This document shows, one piece after another, positions 48,799 through 54,929 of a DNA stretch of 64,000 nucleotides. The notes under the pieces were generated by a model. It ran no database searches, was not told the origin of the DNA, and saw only the letters and a program-made list of their open reading frames with translations. Position 1 is the stretch's first letter. The number at the start of each line of letters is the position of its first letter. This DNA is from an uncultured Acidobacteriota bacterium (GTDB lineage: Bacteria > Acidobacteriota > Thermoanaerobaculia > UBA5066 > Gp7-AA6): positions 130,264 through 194,263 of the forward strand of contig CAVQCH010000002.1 in the NCBI GenBank assembly GCA_963710945.1, read 5' to 3'. A program made the position numbers and the translations under genes.

Positions 48799-50170
48799 CT
48801 AGCCCGCCGCCGGGCCCCGTCGCGCGCGTCCGCCCCGGCGCCGCCGGCGCTTCGGGGGAGGCGGCGGGGGAGGCGGGATCTCGCCCGTCTCGCGCGCGCG
48901 GGCGATGCGCGCCTGCAGGGCGCGCCAGTCGCGGACGAGCTCCTGGCCGCGCCCGGTCGCCATCGCCGTCAGCTCGAAGATGTCGAGCGCCGTCGCGAAG
49001 GCGTCCCGGAAGGCGAGGCGCCGGCTCGGCAGCTTGTTGTCCGGCCGGTGCGAGAGCTTGCCGACGATCGCCAGCGCCTGCTTGATCCGATCGGTGGAGG
49101 CGCGCGGCAGGGACATGCGGAAGGCCAGGGGCGAGACGACCTCCTCGATGATCGTGGCGAGGCGGTTCGGGTCGGGCTCGCCGTCGGGGGCGATGTCGCT
49201 GACGCGGGCGCGGACGATGGGCAGGTACATCACGGCGAAGAGCGCGGTGTCGTCGAAGACGCGCCCGCGGCGGCGCTCGGCGTCGAGCACGTCGAGCAGC
49301 GCCCAGAACAGGTGCCCGGTGCCGTGGGCGTGGTCGGGATCGATCTGGCGCAGCACCGCGGCGAGCTCGGGCAGGAGGGCGTCGAGCAGCCCGACCTCGC
49401 GCATGAGCAGCAGCGTCGGCAGCGCGTGGCCGCCGCGCAGCGCCTGCGCGAGCTCCTCGGTCACCCGGGGCGGCGCGGACTTCACGATCTCCTTGCGGTG
49501 GCGCAGGATCGCCTCGTAGGCGTCCGGCGTGATGGCGAACCCGAGCCGGCTGGCGAACTCGACGGCGCGCATCATGCGGACCGGGTCCTCCTGGAAGCGG
49601 ATGTCCGGATCCCCGATCGTGCGGATCAGCCCGGCCCCGAGGTCCTCGAGGCCGCCGACGTAGTCGATGATCGAGAGGCTGGCGATGTCGTAGAAGAGGC
49701 CGTTGATCGTGAAATCGCGGCGCAGCGCGTCCTCGTAGGGCGTGCCGAACGTGTTGTCGGAGGTCTGGAGCAGCTCCCGGCCCTCGGCGTCCTGGACCGG
49801 GTCCGGCCGCCGCCGGAACGTCGCGACCTCGATGACCTTCCCGTTGGCGAAGAGGATGTGCGCGAGGCGGAACCGCCGGCCGATCATCCGGCAGTTGCGG
49901 AAGAGCTTGCGCAGGCGCCGCCGGATGGGCGTCGGTGCCGATGTCGAAGTCCTTGGGGACACGGGACAGCAGCAGGTCGCGGACGCTGCCGCCGACGAGG
50001 TAGCCCTTGTACCCGGCGCCCTGGAGCCGGTAGAGGACCTTGAGCGCGTCGGGGTCTATCTGCGACCGCGAGATGGGGTGCTCGCCCCGCGGCCGGATGC
50101 GCGGAGCGGGCTCGGAGCGCGGAGCGGGGGGGACGGTCGGATCGGTCGGGGATGAGCGGGTGTCGCTAAT
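48799..50170 (-). CDS. pcnB: Poly(A) polymerase I with probable ATT start (frameshift near 49930)
   Basis: YLVGGSVRD, PKDFDI, PAP signature IGRRFRLAHI and RRDFTIN. No ATG/GTG/TTG in frame between the upstream TAG and the catalytic domain. Confidence 0.88.
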
Positions 50171-50301
50171 GAAGGTGTGCCTCTCTCTCGGAGGGGGATT
50201 CTAGCCTAAGGCATTGACAGAAAGGATGTTTTGACTTTTCTTCGCCCGGTGCGAAAGAATACGCCGTCTTTCGGCAATCCGGAAACGAGGAGGGCTCGAT
50301 C

Positions 50302-51459
50302 ATGAGGTCCCGCATTCTTGCCGCAGTCTGTCTGGCGGCAGTTTTGGCCACGACGCTGTCCTGCGGCTCGAAAGGATCCCAGAAGGAGATCGTGATCGGC
50401 GAGTACGGCTCGCTGACCGGGGGCATCGCGACGTTCGGCATCTCCACGAAGAACGGCTCCGAGCTCGCCGTCGAGGAAGTCAACGAGAAGGGTGGCGTGC
50501 TCGGCAAGCAGATCAAGCTCCTGGTCGAGGACGACCAGTCCAAGCCCGAGGAGGCCGGGACCGTCGTCACCAAGCTGATCAACCAGAACAAGGTCGTCGG
50601 CCGTGCTCGGCGAGGTCGCCTCGTCGCACTCGCTGGCCGCCGGCGCCGATCTGCCAGTCGAACCAGATCCCGATGATCTCGCCCTCCTCGACCAACCCGC
50701 GGGTGACCGCAGGTCGGCGACTACATCTTCCGCGTCTGCTTCATCGACCCGTTCCAGGGCGCGGTGATGGCGAAGTTCGCCGCCGACACGCTGAAGCTGA
50801 AGAAGGTCGCGATCCTGTGCGACGTGCGCAGCGACTACTCGGTCGGCCTCGCCGACGTTCTTCCGCCAGCAGTTCCGGCAGCTCGGCGGCGAGATCGTCG
50901 TCGAGCAGTCGCTACAGCCAGGGCGACACCGACTTCCGCGCGCAGCTCACGGCGATCAAGGCCGCCAAGCCCGAGGCGATCTTCGTGCCCGGCTACTACA
51001 CCGAGGTCGGCACGATCGCCCACCAGGCGCGCGAGCTCGGCATCACGGTGCCGCTCCTCGGCGGCGACGGCTGGGACTCGCCGAAGCTCTCGAGATCGGC
51101 GGGGACGCGCTGAACGGCTGCTACTTCTCGAACCACTACTCGCCCGACGACCCGAACCCGGCCGTGCAGAAGTTCGTCGCGGACTACAAGGCCAAGTACG
51201 GCGCAGACCCCGGACGCGATGGCGGCGCTCGGCTACGACGCCGCGCACATCCTGGCCGACGCGATGACGCGCGCGGGCTCGACCGACGGCGCCGAAGCTC
51301 CGCGACGCGATCGCCGCGACCAAGGACTTCCCGGGCGTGACCGGCACGATCACGATCAACGCCAAGCGCAACGCGGTCAAGCCGGCCGTGGTCCTGAAGA
51401 TCGAGAACGGGAAGTTCCTCCTGGTCGAGACGATCAAGCCCGAAGCGGTGAAGCTGTAG
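50302..51459 (+). CDS. livK: Branched-chain amino acid ABC transporter substrate-binding lipoprotein (multiply frameshifted)
   Basis: Lipobox LSC, GLTGGIATFG, EDDQSKPEEA, DFRAQLT and GGDGWDS motifs across frames. Confidence 0.82.
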
Positions 51460-51473
51460 GCGGCCCCCGGGGA

Positions 51474-51501
51474 GCTGACAGCTGAAGGCTGACGGCTGAC
51501 A
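51474..51501. repeat. Heptamer array GCTGA(C/A)N x4
   Basis: GCTGACA GCTGAAG GCTGACG GCTGACA between livK and livH. Confidence 0.8.
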
Positions 51502-51509
51502 GCTCGGGC

Positions 51510-52416
51510 ATGAACACCTTCCTCCAGCAGCTCATCAACGGCCTGTCGCTCGGGTCGATCTACGCGCTGATCGCGCTCGGCTACACGATGGTCTACGGCG
51601 TGCTGCGGCTCATCAACTTCGCCCACGGCGACGTCTACATGGTGGGCGCCTACGCCGGCTACTACCTGTCGCCGCGCGGCTCGCAGGGCGCGCAGCCGTC
51701 GCTTCGTGTCGGCGCTCGCTCGTGATGCTCGGCGCGATGGCTCGCGTGCGCCGCTGCTCGGGGTGCTGATCGAGCGGCTCGCGTACCGGCCGGTGCGCCG
51801 GGAGCCGCGGCTCACGCTGCTCATCACGGCGATCGGCGTGTCGCTCTTCTCGAGAACGTCGGCCAGCTCGTCTTCGGGCCGGACCCGCGGTTCTTCCCGC
51901 CGCTCGCGCCGCGCGACGGACTTCCGCGATCGGCGGCGTGCGGCTGACGAACGAGCAGCTCACGGTCATCGTCGTCTCGCTCCTGCTGATGCTTCGGCCT
52001 GCAGTTCTTCATCATGAAGACCCGCACGGGCAAGGCGATGCGCGCGGTCTCCTTCAGCCTCGACGCCGCCAAGCTGATGGGCATCTCGACGGACCGGGTC
52101 ATCTCCGTCACCTTCGCGCTCGGCTCCGCGCTGGCCGCGGCGGGCGGCGTCCTCGTCGGCGCTGCCGATCCCGAAGATCGACCCGCTGATGGGGCTCATC
52201 GACGGCCTGAAGGCGTTCGTCGCGGCGGTGCTCGGCGGCATCGGCAACGATCCCGGGCGCGATGCTCGGCGGCCTGCTGATCGGCCGTCCGAGGTCATGG
52301 TGGTCGGCTACCTCTCGTCCACGTACCGCGACGCGATCGCCTTCGCCATCCTGATCCTCGTGCTGTTCCTGCGCCCCCAGGGCCTGCTCGGCCGCGTGCA
52401 CAAGGAGAAGGTGTGA
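51510..52416 (+). CDS. livH: Branched-chain amino acid ABC permease (multiply frameshifted)
   Basis: QQLINGLSLGSIYALIALGYTMVYG, INFAHG, TRTGKAMRA and KAFVAAVLGGIG motifs. Confidence 0.85.
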
Positions 52417-53455
52417 AGGCGGTGGCTCGCGGCGGCGGGCGTCTTCGCGGCGCTCCTCCTCCTCACCGCGGTCTTCGCCGGCTCGCTGGTGCCCGGCGTC
52501 GCCATGCCCCCCTACCTGCTGCAGGTCCTGTGCCTCGCGGGCATCAACATCACGCTGGCGGTGAGCCTCAACCTGATCAACGGCTTCACCGGCCAGTTCT
52601 CGATCGGCCACGCCGGCTTCATGGCGGTCGGCGGCGTACACCTCGGCGTACTTCACGGTGTACCTTCGGCGAGACGGCTGCGGGCGCTCGTCGGCTTCAC
52701 TGCCGGGCTTCGGGCGGCGCCAGCGTCGTGCTGCTCGTCGCCCTGTCGTCGGCGCCGTGCTGGCCGCGCTCGCGGGGTTCTTCGTCGGCGTGCCGTCGCT
52801 GCGCCTGCGCGGCGACTACCTCGCGATCGTGACGCTCGGGTTCGGCGAGATCATCCGCGTCTTCATCCTCAACATCGACGCGGTCGGCGGCGCGCGCGGC
52901 TCACCGGGCGATCCCGAACTCACCAACTTCTTCTGGATCTCTTCGTTCGCGGCCGCTGACGATCCTGGTCGTCACCGGCATCGTCCACTCGACGTTCGGG
53001 CGCGCGCTGGTCGCCATCCGCGAGGACGAGATCGCGGCCGAGGCGATGGGCGTCCACACGACCCGCGCCAAGGTGCTCGCGTTCGTCGTGTCGCGCGCCT
53101 TCGCGGGCGTGGCGGGCGGCCTCTTCGCCCACTACCTGATGTACGTCCACACCAACTCGTTCACCTTCGTGCAAGTCGATCGAGGTCATCGTCATGATCG
53201 TGCTCGGCGGCATCGGCTCGATCACCGGCGCGGTGCTCGGCGCGGCGCTCTGACCATCTGCTGCCCGAGGCGCTGCGCGCAGTTCGCCAGCAGTACCGGA
53301 TGGTGCTCTACTCGCTGCTGCTGATCGTGCTGATGATCTTCCGGCCGCAGGGGCTCTTCGGGCCACAGGAGTTCGTGACGTTCCTGGCCCGCCGCCGCCG
53401 TGCGCTCGGAGCCGCGCCCGGCACCAGCCGGGACGACCTAGGGTGTCCCGGCATG
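52413..53455 (+). CDS. livM: Branched-chain amino acid ABC permease (multiply frameshifted, end approximate)
   Basis: SLNLINGFTGQFSIGHAGF, LRLRGDYLAIVTLGFGEI and FRPQGL motifs. Confidence 0.82.
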
Positions 53456-54221
53456 TCCGACCCTCCAGCTGTCCCGGGTGACGATGCGCTTCGGCGGCCT
53501 CACGGCCGTCAAGGCGCTCGACGCTCGAGATCCGCGCCGGGCCACGCTCTACGGCCTGATCGGCCCGAACGGCGCGGGCAAGACGACGGTCTTCAACGTG
53601 ATGACCGGCGTCTACACGCCGACCGAGGGGACATCCGCTTCGACGGCAGCTCGATCGCGGGCGAAGCCGCAGCGGATCACCCGGCTGGGGATCGCGCGCA
53701 CGTTCCAGAACATCCGCCTGTTCGGCGACATGACGGTGCTCGACAACGTCATGGCGGCGCTTCACCTGCCGGCAGGCGACCACGCTGACGACGCCGTGCT
53801 GCGCACGGGCGCCCACCGCTCCGAGGAGGAGCGCGTCGGCCGGGACGCGCCTCGAGCTGCTGAAGATCTTCGGCCTCGACCACCTCGCGGACGAGCGGCG
53901 CCAACGAGCCTGCCCTACGGCAGCCAGCGGCGGCTCGAGATCGCCCGCGCGCTCGCGACCGAGCCGCAAGCTGCTGCTGCTCGACGAGCCGGCGGCCGGC
54001 ATGAACCCCCAGGAGTCGCACGAGCTGATGGAGCTCGATCCGCTGGCTCCGCGACGAGTTCGGCATGACCATCCTTCTCGTCGAGCACAACATGAAGGTC
54101 GTGATGGGCATCTGCGAGACGATGCAGGTGATCGACTACGGCGAGACGATCGCCGATCGGGCCGCCGGCCGAGATCCAGCGCGACCCGCAGGTGATCGAG
54201 GCGTACCTGGGGGGCGCGTGA
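53453..54221 (+). CDS. livG: Branched-chain amino acid ABC ATPase (multiply frameshifted)
   Basis: GLIGPNGAGKTT, ARTFQNIRLF, LPYGSQRRLEIARAL and LLVEHNM motifs. Confidence 0.82.
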
Positions 54222-54929
54222 GCGCGATCCTCGAGGTCCGCGAACCTGTCGGTGTCCTACGGCGCCATCCACGCGCTCCAGGGCGTGTCGTTGACGCTGT
54301 CCGAGGGCGAGATCGTGACCCTGATCGGCGCCAACGGCGCCGGCAAGTCGACGACGCTGCGCGCGATCACCGGGCCTCGTCCGCGCTCGCGCGGGCGAGG
54401 TGCGGTTCGACGGCGAGCCCACGCGCCATCCCGACGCACCGGCTCGTGCGCGCGCGGCCTCGTCCATCGTGCCCGAGGGGCGCAGCGTCTTCGCGAACCT
54501 CACGGTGCCGAGAACCTCGAGATGGGCGCCTACGCGCGCCGGGACCGCGGCGTCGCGGCCGATCTCGAGCGGGTCTTCGCCCTGTTCCCGCGCCTGAAGG
54601 AGCGGCTGCGCCAGCCGGCGGGCACGCTCTCCGGCGGCGAGCAGCAGATGCTCGCGATCGGCCGGGCGCTGATGTCGAAGCCGAGCGTCGCTCCTGCTCG
54701 ACGAGCCGTCGCTCGGCCTCGCGCCGATCGTGGTCCAGGCCATCTTCGAGGCGATCGTGGAGATCACCGGGAAGGCACGACCGTGCTGCTGGTCGAGCAG
54801 AACGCCAACGCGGCGCTGCGGCACTCCGACCGGGCGTACGTGCTCGAGACGGGCCGCGTCGCGCTCGAGGGGACCTCGGCGGAGGTCGCGTCGAACCCCA
54901 AGGTGAAGGAGGCGTACCTGGGCGAGTGA
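54218..54929 (+). CDS. livF: Branched-chain amino acid ABC ATPase (multiply frameshifted)
   Basis: GANGAGKST, LSGGEQQMLAIGRALM, LLVEQNA and AYLG motifs. Confidence 0.85.

What the first reader, a model, noticed from the sequence alone, without database searches (positions are those of the whole stretch)
50098..50205. pcnB appears to start at ATT, as E. coli pcnB does
Seen (minus strand): an in-frame TAG lies 11 codons upstream of ATT at 50170. ATT is in frame with RIRPRGEHPIS...GGSVRD and follows GAGAGG by 9 nt. No ATG, GTG or TTG occurs in frame before the catalytic motif. Established: E. coli pcnB and infC initiate at AUU, which keeps expression low and IF3-sensitive. Inference: the same non-canonical control of poly(A) polymerase in a distant phylum. 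Gene callers would mis-start or truncate this gene.
Basis: partly seen in the sequence, partly recalled or inferred. Interest (0 to 1): 0.65.

Follow-up and report, generated by a model that had tools for sequence, protein, structure and literature searches.

The report
pcnB gene starting at ATT
This soil-type Acidobacteriota (Thermoanaerobaculia) bacterium most likely starts its poly(A) polymerase gene at the weak codon ATT, as E. coli does; about 60 related species share the habit, but this assembly's copy also carries a probable one-base sequencing error.

Summary
On the minus strand, ATT at 50170-50168 is in frame with the conserved PcnB N-terminus. GAGAGG lies 9 nt upstream and TAG lies 11 codons upstream. 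No ATG, GTG or TTG precedes the catalytic motif.

Comparative data support ATT as the start codon.
- 60 of 79 Thermoanaerobaculia genomes carry ATT (46), ATC (12) or ATA (2) at this column, and never a canonical start.
- All 60 have a GGAG/GAGG core 4-14 nt upstream.
- The distance to the conserved Ile of PRIRPR takes seven lengths, all multiples of 3.
- 29 genomes have an in-frame stop just upstream and no canonical start.
- ATT makes up 76% of codons here, against 4.6% of internal Ile codons in the same genes.

NCBI's pipeline starts these proteins 24 codons downstream, at the ATC of RIRPR. That codon is probably wrong. Other gene callers truncate or over-extend the gene.

The window copy has an extra base at 49915/49914 that frameshifts pcnB. 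The site also sits at the edge of a 4.9-kb stretch dense in 1-nt indels, probably a long-read assembly error.

This is a new member of a known kind, and weak-start control itself is inferred.

The parts
50198..50203 (-). TAGAAT, a -10-like promoter hexamer.
   Evidence: It is invariant in 23/23 congeners. A TAGAAT, TACAAT or TAAAAT lies 24-53 nt (once 88 nt) before the AUH codon in 57/60 clade genomes. The same element sits 8-10 nt before a canonical ATG in sister clades. Promoter function is inferred, because no RNA data could be obtained.
50180..50185 (-). Shine-Dalgarno-like GAGAGG, part of GAGAGAGAGG at 50189-50180, 9 nt before ATT.
   Evidence: Seen. A GGAG/GAGG core lies 4-14 nt upstream of the AUH codon in 60/60 genomes with 50 distinct upstream sequences. 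The background inside pcnB is 14%.
50168..50170 (-). ATT, the proposed initiation codon of pcnB.
   Evidence: The column holds ATT 46, ATC 12 and ATA 2 across the window plus 59 relatives, and never ATG, GTG or TTG. Among the 59 relatives, ATT is 76% of codons here, against 4.6% of 1375 internal Ile codons of the same genes (odds ratio 67).
50099..50167 (-). N-terminal extension of 23 codons (SDTRSSPTDPTVPPAPRSEPAPR). It is variable and rich in Pro, Ser, Thr and Glu, and it contains the C7 run at 50132-50126.
   Evidence: The distance from AUH to the Ile of PRIRPR is 66, 69, 72, 75, 78, 93 or 99 nt, always a multiple of 3. The last residues are under protein-level selection: Pro at -2 is 60/60 with CCC, CCG or CCT, and Arg at -1 is 58/60 including AGA and AGG.
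50096..50098 (-). ATC, the Ile of RIRPR. This is the codon that NCBI's annotation uses as the start in relatives, and it is the rival start site.
   Evidence: P0008, P0019, P0026 and P0031 begin MRPRSEH. An SD core is present in only 11/60 genomes. The codon is GTC, GTT or GTA in 8/60 genomes, and the codons upstream of it vary only synonymously.
49916..50170 (-). First reading-frame piece of pcnB (85 codons). It includes the catalytic GGSVRD at 49993-49976 and DFD at 49951-49943.
   Evidence: Translation. It scores 75 bits against TIGR01942 at profile positions 3-57.
49914..49915 (-). CC where relatives have a single C or G. This is a one-base insertion that frameshifts pcnB in this assembly.
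   Evidence: It is absent from all 22 congeners and from 9 more distant relatives. It was also called as a window-specific insertion against both G006 and G020.
48799..49914 (-). Second reading-frame piece of pcnB (371 codons plus the stop at 48801-48799). It includes RRDFTINGLFYD and an Arg-rich C-terminus.
   Evidence: Seen. It scores 238.7 bits against TIGR01942. Intact orthologues score 337 and 330 bits against a cut-off of 305.65. The best solved structure is E. coli PAP I.
50231..50260 (+). Divergent promoter-like site TTGACT-18-AAGAAT for the livJ-like gene, whose ATG is at 50302.
   Evidence: Found. Both hexamers lie in invariant blocks of the congener alignment.

Best explanation
The gene is a PcnB-subfamily nucleotidyltransferase, the closest solved relative of which is E. 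coli poly(A) polymerase I. In the intact form of the gene, translation most likely begins at AUU 50170.

The likely sequence of events is as follows. A short mRNA starts a few bases after the conserved TAGAAT. The GAGAGG 9 nt upstream of AUU positions the 30S subunit. Initiator tRNA then reads AUU with a third-position mismatch, giving a 456-aa protein with a 23-residue variable N-terminal extension.

AUU, AUC and AUA are poor start codons that IF3 discriminates against. This start would therefore keep PcnB synthesis low and tie it to IF3 activity, as shown for E. coli pcnB.

What is shown by sequence comparison: the position of the start, its conservation, the SD, and the absence of alternatives. 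What is inferred: the promoter, the low output and the IF3 dependence.

The extra base at 49915/49914 that breaks the frame in this window is most likely an assembly error.
For: Identity of the gene:
- The two pieces score 238.7 + 75 bits against TIGR01942.
- Intact orthologues score 337 and 330 bits, above the 305.65 cut-off.
- E. coli PAP I structures 3AQK/L/M are the best PDB hits at 261 bits, against 119 bits for CCA-adding enzymes.

Position of the start:
- In 23 congeners the aligned codon is ATT (18) or ATC (5). The downstream spacing is always a multiple of 3, whereas the TAGAAT-to-ATT spacer takes any length from 25 to 88 nt.
- Among 79 named Thermoanaerobaculia loci, a frame-blind motif search finds the AUH codon in 60. 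All are in frame, across 7 length classes.
- An in-frame stop lies within 20 codons upstream in 34 of 59 genomes scored, as close as 4 codons. In 29 of those 34 there is no canonical start before PRIRPR.
- An SD core is present in 60/60 genomes, against 11/60 at the rival codon and a 14% background.
- ATT is 76% of codons at this column, against 4.6% of internal Ile codons, although third-position GC (GC3) is about 0.9.
- The 5' region is not structured, with z = +0.7 to +1.2.

Age of the trait:
- On a PcnB tree the AUH state covers most deep branches of the family. It has switched among T, C and A several times and never to G.

Context:
- infC of the same genome starts at ATC, with a stop one codon upstream, in 20/20 genomes of the genus.
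- The E. coli precedent for the AUU start, and the proposal that excess PAP I is toxic, are in PMC2939334.
Against: - There is no direct evidence of initiation.
- GC3 in the extension is only 0.76, against 0.91 in the domain, so its coding signal is modest.
- No good -35 hexamer accompanies TAGAAT (one search found no minus-strand promoter by the two-hexamer rule).
- A conserved ATT/ATC/ATA column is also what a conserved internal Ile would give. The case therefore rests on the stops, the SD, the frame conservation and the codon bias together.
- The counts are not phylogenetically independent.
- The window itself is locally error-ridden and its copy is frameshifted.
- Two genomes have a sporadic in-frame TTG 5 codons downstream, and one has an ATG 10 codons downstream.
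Confidence: 0.82

Rival explanations
1. Translation starts 24 codons further down, at the ATC of RIRPR (50098-50096). NCBI's pipeline annotates relatives this way. On this reading the ATT region is 5' UTR.
For: NCBI-named PcnB proteins of the clade (P0008, P0019, P0026, P0031) begin MRPRSEH. The family profile TIGR01942 begins near here, with profile position 3 at residue 27. The E. coli crystal constructs also begin at the homologous VIPREQH.
Against: - An SD core lies upstream in only 11/60 genomes, close to the background rate.
- The codon is GTC, GTT or GTA, which are not start codons, in 8/60 clade genomes.
- The two codons before it vary only synonymously: Pro is 60/60 with three codons, and Arg is 58/60 including CGN-to-AGR switches.
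- The upstream segment keeps frame through 7 length classes.
- Sister clades place canonical starts 17-19 codons upstream of this motif, so the segment is normally translated.
Confidence: 0.07
2. A canonical start exists, but indel or base errors in this poor stretch of the assembly hide it or shift it out of frame. Alternatively, the true start is an upstream TTG or ATG, as some gene callers propose.
For: The window has about 57 private small indels in 49914-54763 and a frameshift inside pcnB itself. Some database calls extend upstream to 464-503 aa.
Against: - The window's TAGAAT-SD-ATT-AGCGAC context matches the consensus of 59 relatives. These include short-read MAGs and long-read MAGs that are 97-98% complete in 2 contigs, and none has a canonical codon there.
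- The upstream region does not keep frame and carries in-frame stops in 34/59 genomes.
- The upstream extensions run through the conserved -10-like element and into the divergent livJ leader.
Confidence: 0.03
3. Translation starts at a canonical GTG or TTG inside the conserved domain, as Prodigal-type callers report. The upstream conserved residues are then not part of the protein.
For: Many ENA and JGI calls are 383-413 aa long, for example MGGSVRD... and MLYRLHGGG.... In this window the only canonical-start ORF is the 387-aa GTG ORF at 49962.
Against: - These starts delete residues that align to E. coli PAP I and to the family profile (PRIRPRxEHxISRSxIDPDALKVLYRL). In this window they also delete the GGSVRD...DFD catalytic motif.
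- The positions of these codons are not conserved among relatives.
Confidence: 0.03
4. The window's pcnB is a genuine pseudogene. On this reading the extra base at 49915/49914 is real, so the start codon is moot in this strain.
For: The frameshift is in the assembled sequence and is unique among more than 30 aligned relatives.
Against: - It sits at the boundary of a 4.9-kb stretch with about one private 1-nt indel per 85 nt. That stretch breaks the livJ-like gene 8 times and extends to 54763, while flanking regions are nearly clean. This pattern points to local consensus failure rather than decay.
- Apart from this one base, both pieces are full-length and free of stops.
Confidence: 0.1

Closest known systems
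E. coli pcnB (poly(A) polymerase I), translated from AUU (Binns & Masters 2002, as cited in PMC2939334 and PMC2830850)
   Same: - Same protein subfamily: TIGR01942, and the best PDB hits are 3AQK/L/M.
- No canonical start lies ahead of the conserved N-terminus.
- An AUU codon sits behind an SD.
- An N-terminal extension of about 23-30 residues precedes the (V/R)IPR...H.ISR motif.
- infC of the same genome also uses an AUH start.
   Different: - A different phylum (Acidobacteriota, class Thermoanaerobaculia).
- The N-terminal extension shows no evident sequence similarity to E. coli's.
- Sister clades of the same order use ATG, NTG, leaderless or uORF-coupled starts, so the trait probably arose independently.
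- Here the start codon drifts among AUU, AUC and AUA.
- Initiation, low output and toxicity of over-expression are not demonstrated here.
infC (IF3) AUU/AUA/AUC start and IF3 autoregulation
   Same: A conserved AUH start behind a strong SD. It is present in this genome too, as GGAGG-TGA-AAG-ATC.
   Different: infC autoregulates through its own product. pcnB would be only a passive target of IF3 discrimination.
NCBI (PGAP) annotation of Thermoanaerobaculia PcnB with a non-canonical start
   Same: It recognises that the gene has no canonical start and uses an ATC/ATT codon.
   Different: It picks the Ile of RIRPR, 22-33 codons downstream of the SD-preceded AUH codon (24 codons in this window). 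The comparative evidence argues against that choice.
Proposed ATC start of the pcnB homologue of Meiothermus silvanus (PMC2830850)
   Same: A comparative inference of an AUH start on a pcnB-like gene outside the Proteobacteria.
   Different: It concerns a single genome in the Deinococcus-Thermus group and is based on one alignment. Here the evidence comes from 60 genomes with several independent lines.

Membership tests
PcnB subfamily of class II nucleotidyltransferases (TIGR01942) | Whole-protein score above the curated cut-off of 305.65 bits | tested here: met
   Intact orthologues read from the AUH codon score 337.4 and 329.8 bits. The two frame pieces of the window score 238.7 and 75 bits. 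The E. coli-type equivalog NF008634 (cut-off 702) is not reached (283.7 bits), so this is a subfamily member rather than an equivalog.
PcnB subfamily of class II nucleotidyltransferases (TIGR01942) | Catalytic head motifs GGxVRD...DxD and RRD | tested here: met
   GGSVRD lies at 49993-49976 and DFD at 49951-49943. RRDFTINGLFYD is in the second piece.
PcnB subfamily of class II nucleotidyltransferases (TIGR01942) | Closer to poly(A) polymerase I than to CCA-adding enzymes, with a separate CCA-type paralogue in the genome | tested here: met
   PAP I structures score 261 bits, against 119 bits for the best CCA-adding enzyme. A second, weakly similar nucleotidyltransferase lies at G000:C6:276703-277164. 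Its identity as a CCA-adding enzyme was not tested.
PcnB subfamily of class II nucleotidyltransferases (TIGR01942) | Poly(A)-adding activity on RNA 3' ends | not testable with these tools
   This needs an enzyme assay.
AUU-initiated pcnB (E. coli-type weak-start control) | No ATG, GTG or TTG available between the nearest upstream stop and the conserved N-terminus | tested here: met
   This holds for the window. It also holds for 29 of the 34 relatives that have a stop within 20 codons upstream.
AUU-initiated pcnB (E. coli-type weak-start control) | AUU (or AUH) codon in frame behind a Shine-Dalgarno sequence at working distance, conserved among relatives | tested here: met
   60/60 genomes have the SD core 4-14 nt upstream. 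The codon is ATT 46, ATC 12 and ATA 2.
AUU-initiated pcnB (E. coli-type weak-start control) | Initiation at that codon shown directly, by N-terminal sequence, toeprint or reporter | not testable with these tools
AUU-initiated pcnB (E. coli-type weak-start control) | The weak codon limits expression (AUU-to-AUG raises it) and IF3 discriminates against it | not testable with these tools
   The support is indirect. The third base never becomes G in 60 genomes despite several T/C/A switches. The strong ATT bias runs against the genome's codon usage. infC uses ATC.
Leaderless mRNA initiation | A start codon (normally AUG) at or within a few bases of the transcript 5' end | tested here: not met
   In the window ATT lies 27 nt after TAGAAT, with an SD in between. 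Sister clades do show ATG 8-10 nt after TAGAAT.
Programmed +1 ribosomal frameshift (considered for the extra base at 49915/49914) | The frameshift site is conserved in relatives | tested here: not met
   None of 22 congeners and none of 9 more distant relatives has the extra base.

The most novel reading that the evidence does not exclude
Weak initiation of pcnB may be a convergent, selected solution in distant phyla. On this reading, a family of Thermoanaerobaculia has kept an AUH start on pcnB since its origin, alongside an AUC start on infC, which re-creates the E. coli infC/pcnB pair. Its sister lineages would reach a similar end by other unusual routes: CUG starts, leaderless AUG, or an overlapping 8-codon uORF. 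If so, capping poly(A) polymerase synthesis at the initiation step, and coupling it to IF3 activity, would be a general requirement of bacteria that carry PcnB.
Probability: 0.45. Interest if true: 0.55.

Novelty: new member of a known kind. Interest (0 to 1): 0.4.

Why it matters
- It extends one of the two classic chromosomal AUU-start genes of E. coli to another phylum. The comparative evidence is unusually clean, and the origin appears independent. That supports the idea that poly(A) polymerase dosage must be limited at translation initiation.
- It has a practical side. Public proteins of this clade are annotated with at least four different N-termini (383-503 aa). The NCBI start, although non-canonical, is probably 24 codons too far downstream.
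- The ATT-versus-ATC codon-bias test used here is a simple way to tell a start AUH codon from an internal Ile codon in high-GC genomes.
- It is not a new mechanism.

Tried and rejected
- **Read and RNA evidence.** The C7 run, the extra base at 49915/49914 and the transcription start could therefore not be checked.
- **Assembly quality from rpoB and rpoC.** Neither gene is in the assembly, so this check was uninformative. It was replaced by a three-way indel comparison with two good congeners.
- **GC by codon position in the 23-codon extension.** The signal is only modest (0.65/0.65/0.76). The 10 codons upstream look similar because of the conserved SD block, so this is not decisive.
- **RNA structure around the start.** None was found beyond shuffled controls. 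A riboswitch or thermosensor reading is therefore rejected.
- **Programmed frameshift at 49915.** Rejected, because no relative has the extra base.
- **Is L059 the same genome?** Its contig has almost the same length and the same gene position, which raised the question. It is not, since identity in this region is only about 87-90%. The coincidence remains unexplained.
- **tblastn of the livJ-like gene.** It gave blurred, overlapping HSPs. A k-mer diagonal scan was needed to count the frame changes.
- **First locus script.** It failed because loci are stored many to a file and are not oriented.

Full report
**Observation**

On the minus strand the sequence reads ...GGC TAG AAT CCC CCT CCG AGA GAG AGG CAC ACC TTC ATT AGC GAC ACC CGC.... 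The coordinates are:
- TAG at 50203-50201;
- GAGAGG at 50185-50180;
- ATT at 50170-50168;
- the C7 run at 50132-50126.

The frame opened by ATT reads ISDTRSSPTDPTVPPAPRSEPAPRIRPRGEHPISRSQIDPDALKVLYRLQGAGYKGYLVGGSVRDLLLSRVPKDFDIGTDAHPAA. It contains no ATG, GTG or TTG.

After ...TDAHPAA the protein continues in another frame (LRKLFRNCRMIGRRFRLAHILF...). The window has 'GCGGCGCCTGCGC', whereas all 22 congeners have one base fewer. The extra base lies at 49915/49914.

The only canonical-start ORF in the window is a 387-aa GTG ORF from 49962. It lacks the GGSVRD...DFD motif.

The neighbouring livJ-like gene (50302-51459, plus strand) changes frame eight times relative to an intact congener. I compared the window with two high-quality congeners, each 97-98% complete in 2 contigs. 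About 57 window-private 1-2 nt indels fall between 49914 and 54763, and few fall in the flanks.

This is the signature of a local consensus failure in a long-read MAG. Many relatives are 'MFD' long-read MAGs.

**Identity of the gene**

- The two pieces score 238.7 and 75 bits against TIGR01942 (pcnB subfamily).
- Intact orthologues read from the ATT-column codon score 337 and 330 bits, above the 305.65 cut-off.
- The best solved structures are E. coli poly(A) polymerase I (3AQK/L/M) at 261 bits. The best CCA-adding enzyme scores 119 bits.

**The start codon within the genus**

All 40 relatives searched carry the gene. In an alignment of 23 genomes of the genus, the column under ATT holds ATT (18) or ATC (5). 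It is preceded by a conserved GAGAGG-type block.

From ATT to the conserved CGC ATC CGG (RIR) the distance is 63, 66, 69, 75 or 96 nt, always a multiple of 3. The TAGAAT-to-ATT spacer takes any length from 25 to 88 nt. The coding region therefore appears to begin at or near ATT.

**The start codon within the class**

Eighty named loci of Thermoanaerobaculia MAGs were fetched. A frame-blind search for the motif AT[TCA]-ANC-GAN finds exactly one hit in 60 of 79 usable genomes, counting the window.
- All hits are in frame with the domain. The distance to the Ile of PRIRPR is 66, 69, 72, 75, 78, 93 or 99 nt.
- The codon is ATT 46, ATC 12 and ATA 2.
- A GGAG/GAGG core lies 4-14 nt upstream in 60/60 genomes, which together have 50 distinct upstream sequences. 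The background inside pcnB is 14%.
- An in-frame stop lies within 20 codons upstream in 34 of 59 genomes scored, as close as 4 codons. In 29 of those 34 no canonical start exists before PRIRPR.
- A TAGAAT, TACAAT or TAAAAT hexamer lies 24-53 nt upstream in 57/60 genomes.
- The 5' region is no more structured than shuffled sequence.

**A test that separates a start AUH codon from an internal Ile codon**

In these high-GC genes the internal Ile codons are ATC 1303, ATT 63 and ATA 9. At the candidate start column the 59 relatives give ATT 45, ATC 12 and ATA 2. The odds ratio is 67 and the Fisher p-value is about 1e-42, uncorrected for shared ancestry.

The column is therefore under a different selection regime from ordinary Ile codons.

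**The rival non-canonical start**

NCBI-named PcnB proteins of this clade begin MRPRSEH, that is, at the ATC of RIRPR (window 50098-50096). Four observations argue against this codon:
- an SD core lies upstream in only 11/60 genomes;
- the codon is GTC, GTT or GTA in 8/60 genomes;
- Pro at -2 is 60/60 using CCC, CCG and CCT, and Arg at -1 is 58/60 including AGA and AGG, so these codons are translated;
- sister clades place canonical starts 17-19 codons upstream of this motif.

Other callers give 383-413 aa (truncated into the domain) or 464-503 aa (extended through the promoter element).

**Phylogenetic setting**

On a PcnB tree of 83 sequences with the sister family as outgroup, AUH lineages occupy most deep branches of the family. 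Two nested clades have moved to another start column.
- One clade uses a leaderless-looking ATG 9 nt after TAGAAT.
- The other uses ATG, TTG, GTG or CTG, with CTG in 6 of 11 genomes.

Two sister families of the order use ATG. In one it lies 8-10 nt after TAGAAT. In the other it overlaps the stop of an 8-codon uORF that follows a TACAAT.

The AUH start is thus old within one family and has switched among T, C and A several times, but never to G. It is probably independent of the E. coli case.

**Context for the mechanism**

infC of the same genome reads GGAGG-TGA-AAG-ATC. The same arrangement holds in 20/20 genomes of the genus, and sister families use ATC or ATT. The lineage therefore uses AUH initiation where IF3 autoregulation is expected.

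The literature confirms that E. coli pcnB starts at AUU, that this limits its translation, and that excess PAP I was proposed to be toxic (PMC2939334). A Deinococcus annotation paper had already suggested an ATC start for a Meiothermus pcnB homologue (PMC2830850).

**Verdict**

This pcnB most likely initiates at AUU 50170 behind an SD on a short leader (confidence about 0.8). Low, IF3-sensitive output is a reasonable inference but remains untested.

It is a new member of a known kind, and its interest is moderate. The window's own copy is frameshifted, probably by assembly error, and sits in a poor stretch of sequence. The window alone would therefore not have carried the claim. The relatives do.

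Noticed in passing
window 49914-54763: This stretch holds about 57 window-private 1-2 nt indels, mostly 1-nt insertions, relative to two high-quality congeners. It covers the 5' part of pcnB and the livJ-like gene, which changes frame 8 times, and extends through the syntenic sequence downstream of it. The flanks at 43.8-49.9 kb and 55-59 kb are nearly clean. This is probably a local consensus failure of a long-read assembly.
   Followed up: partly
G000:C2:489206-489230 (own genome, outside the window); L120, L123-L151: infC has no canonical start. It reads GGAGG-TGA-AAG-ATC-GAT-AAG..., with a stop one codon before the ATC, in 20/20 genomes of the genus. One sister family has AGGAGG-N6-ATC, and another uses ATC or ATT.
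   Followed up: yes
L033-L038 (sister family f2), about 60 nt upstream of PRILPR: pcnB there starts at a canonical ATG that overlaps (as ATGA) the stop of a conserved 8-codon uORF, ATG TCG ATT CGA CAT CCC GCG GGA TGA. The uORF begins 8 nt after a TACAAT. This looks like a leaderless uORF with translational coupling.
   Followed up: no
L023-L030 (sister family f3) and L099, L102, L109-L111: A canonical ATG lies only 8-10 nt after the conserved TAGAAT. The pcnB mRNA there is probably leaderless or nearly so.
   Followed up: no
L083, L091, L093, L094, L097, L108 and relatives (L084, L086, L092, L104, L107): In one nested clade the start column, 19 codons before the Ile of PRIRPR, holds ATG, TTG, GTG or CTG. 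CTG occurs in 6 of 11 genomes, and no SD lies nearby.
   Followed up: partly
window 50205-50262, both strands: The intergenic block AAGTCAAAAC...TGTCAATGS is highly conserved. It contains two GTCAA(A/T) repeats between the divergent pcnB and livJ-like genes. On the plus strand it forms TTGACA and TTGACT -35-like hexamers. It may be a shared regulator site.
   Followed up: no
L059 (CAWJKC010000001.1, 575,655 nt) versus G000:C2 (575,600 nt): A public contig has almost the same length as the window's contig and carries pcnB at almost the same coordinate (178-180 kb). It is nevertheless only about 87-90% identical across the pcnB 5' region. This is unexplained.
   Followed up: partly
G000 (whole assembly): rpoB (TIGR02013) and rpoC (TIGR02386) give no match anywhere in the 7-contig, 3.97-Mb assembly. 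The 79% completeness therefore reflects missing sequence as well as broken genes.
   Followed up: no
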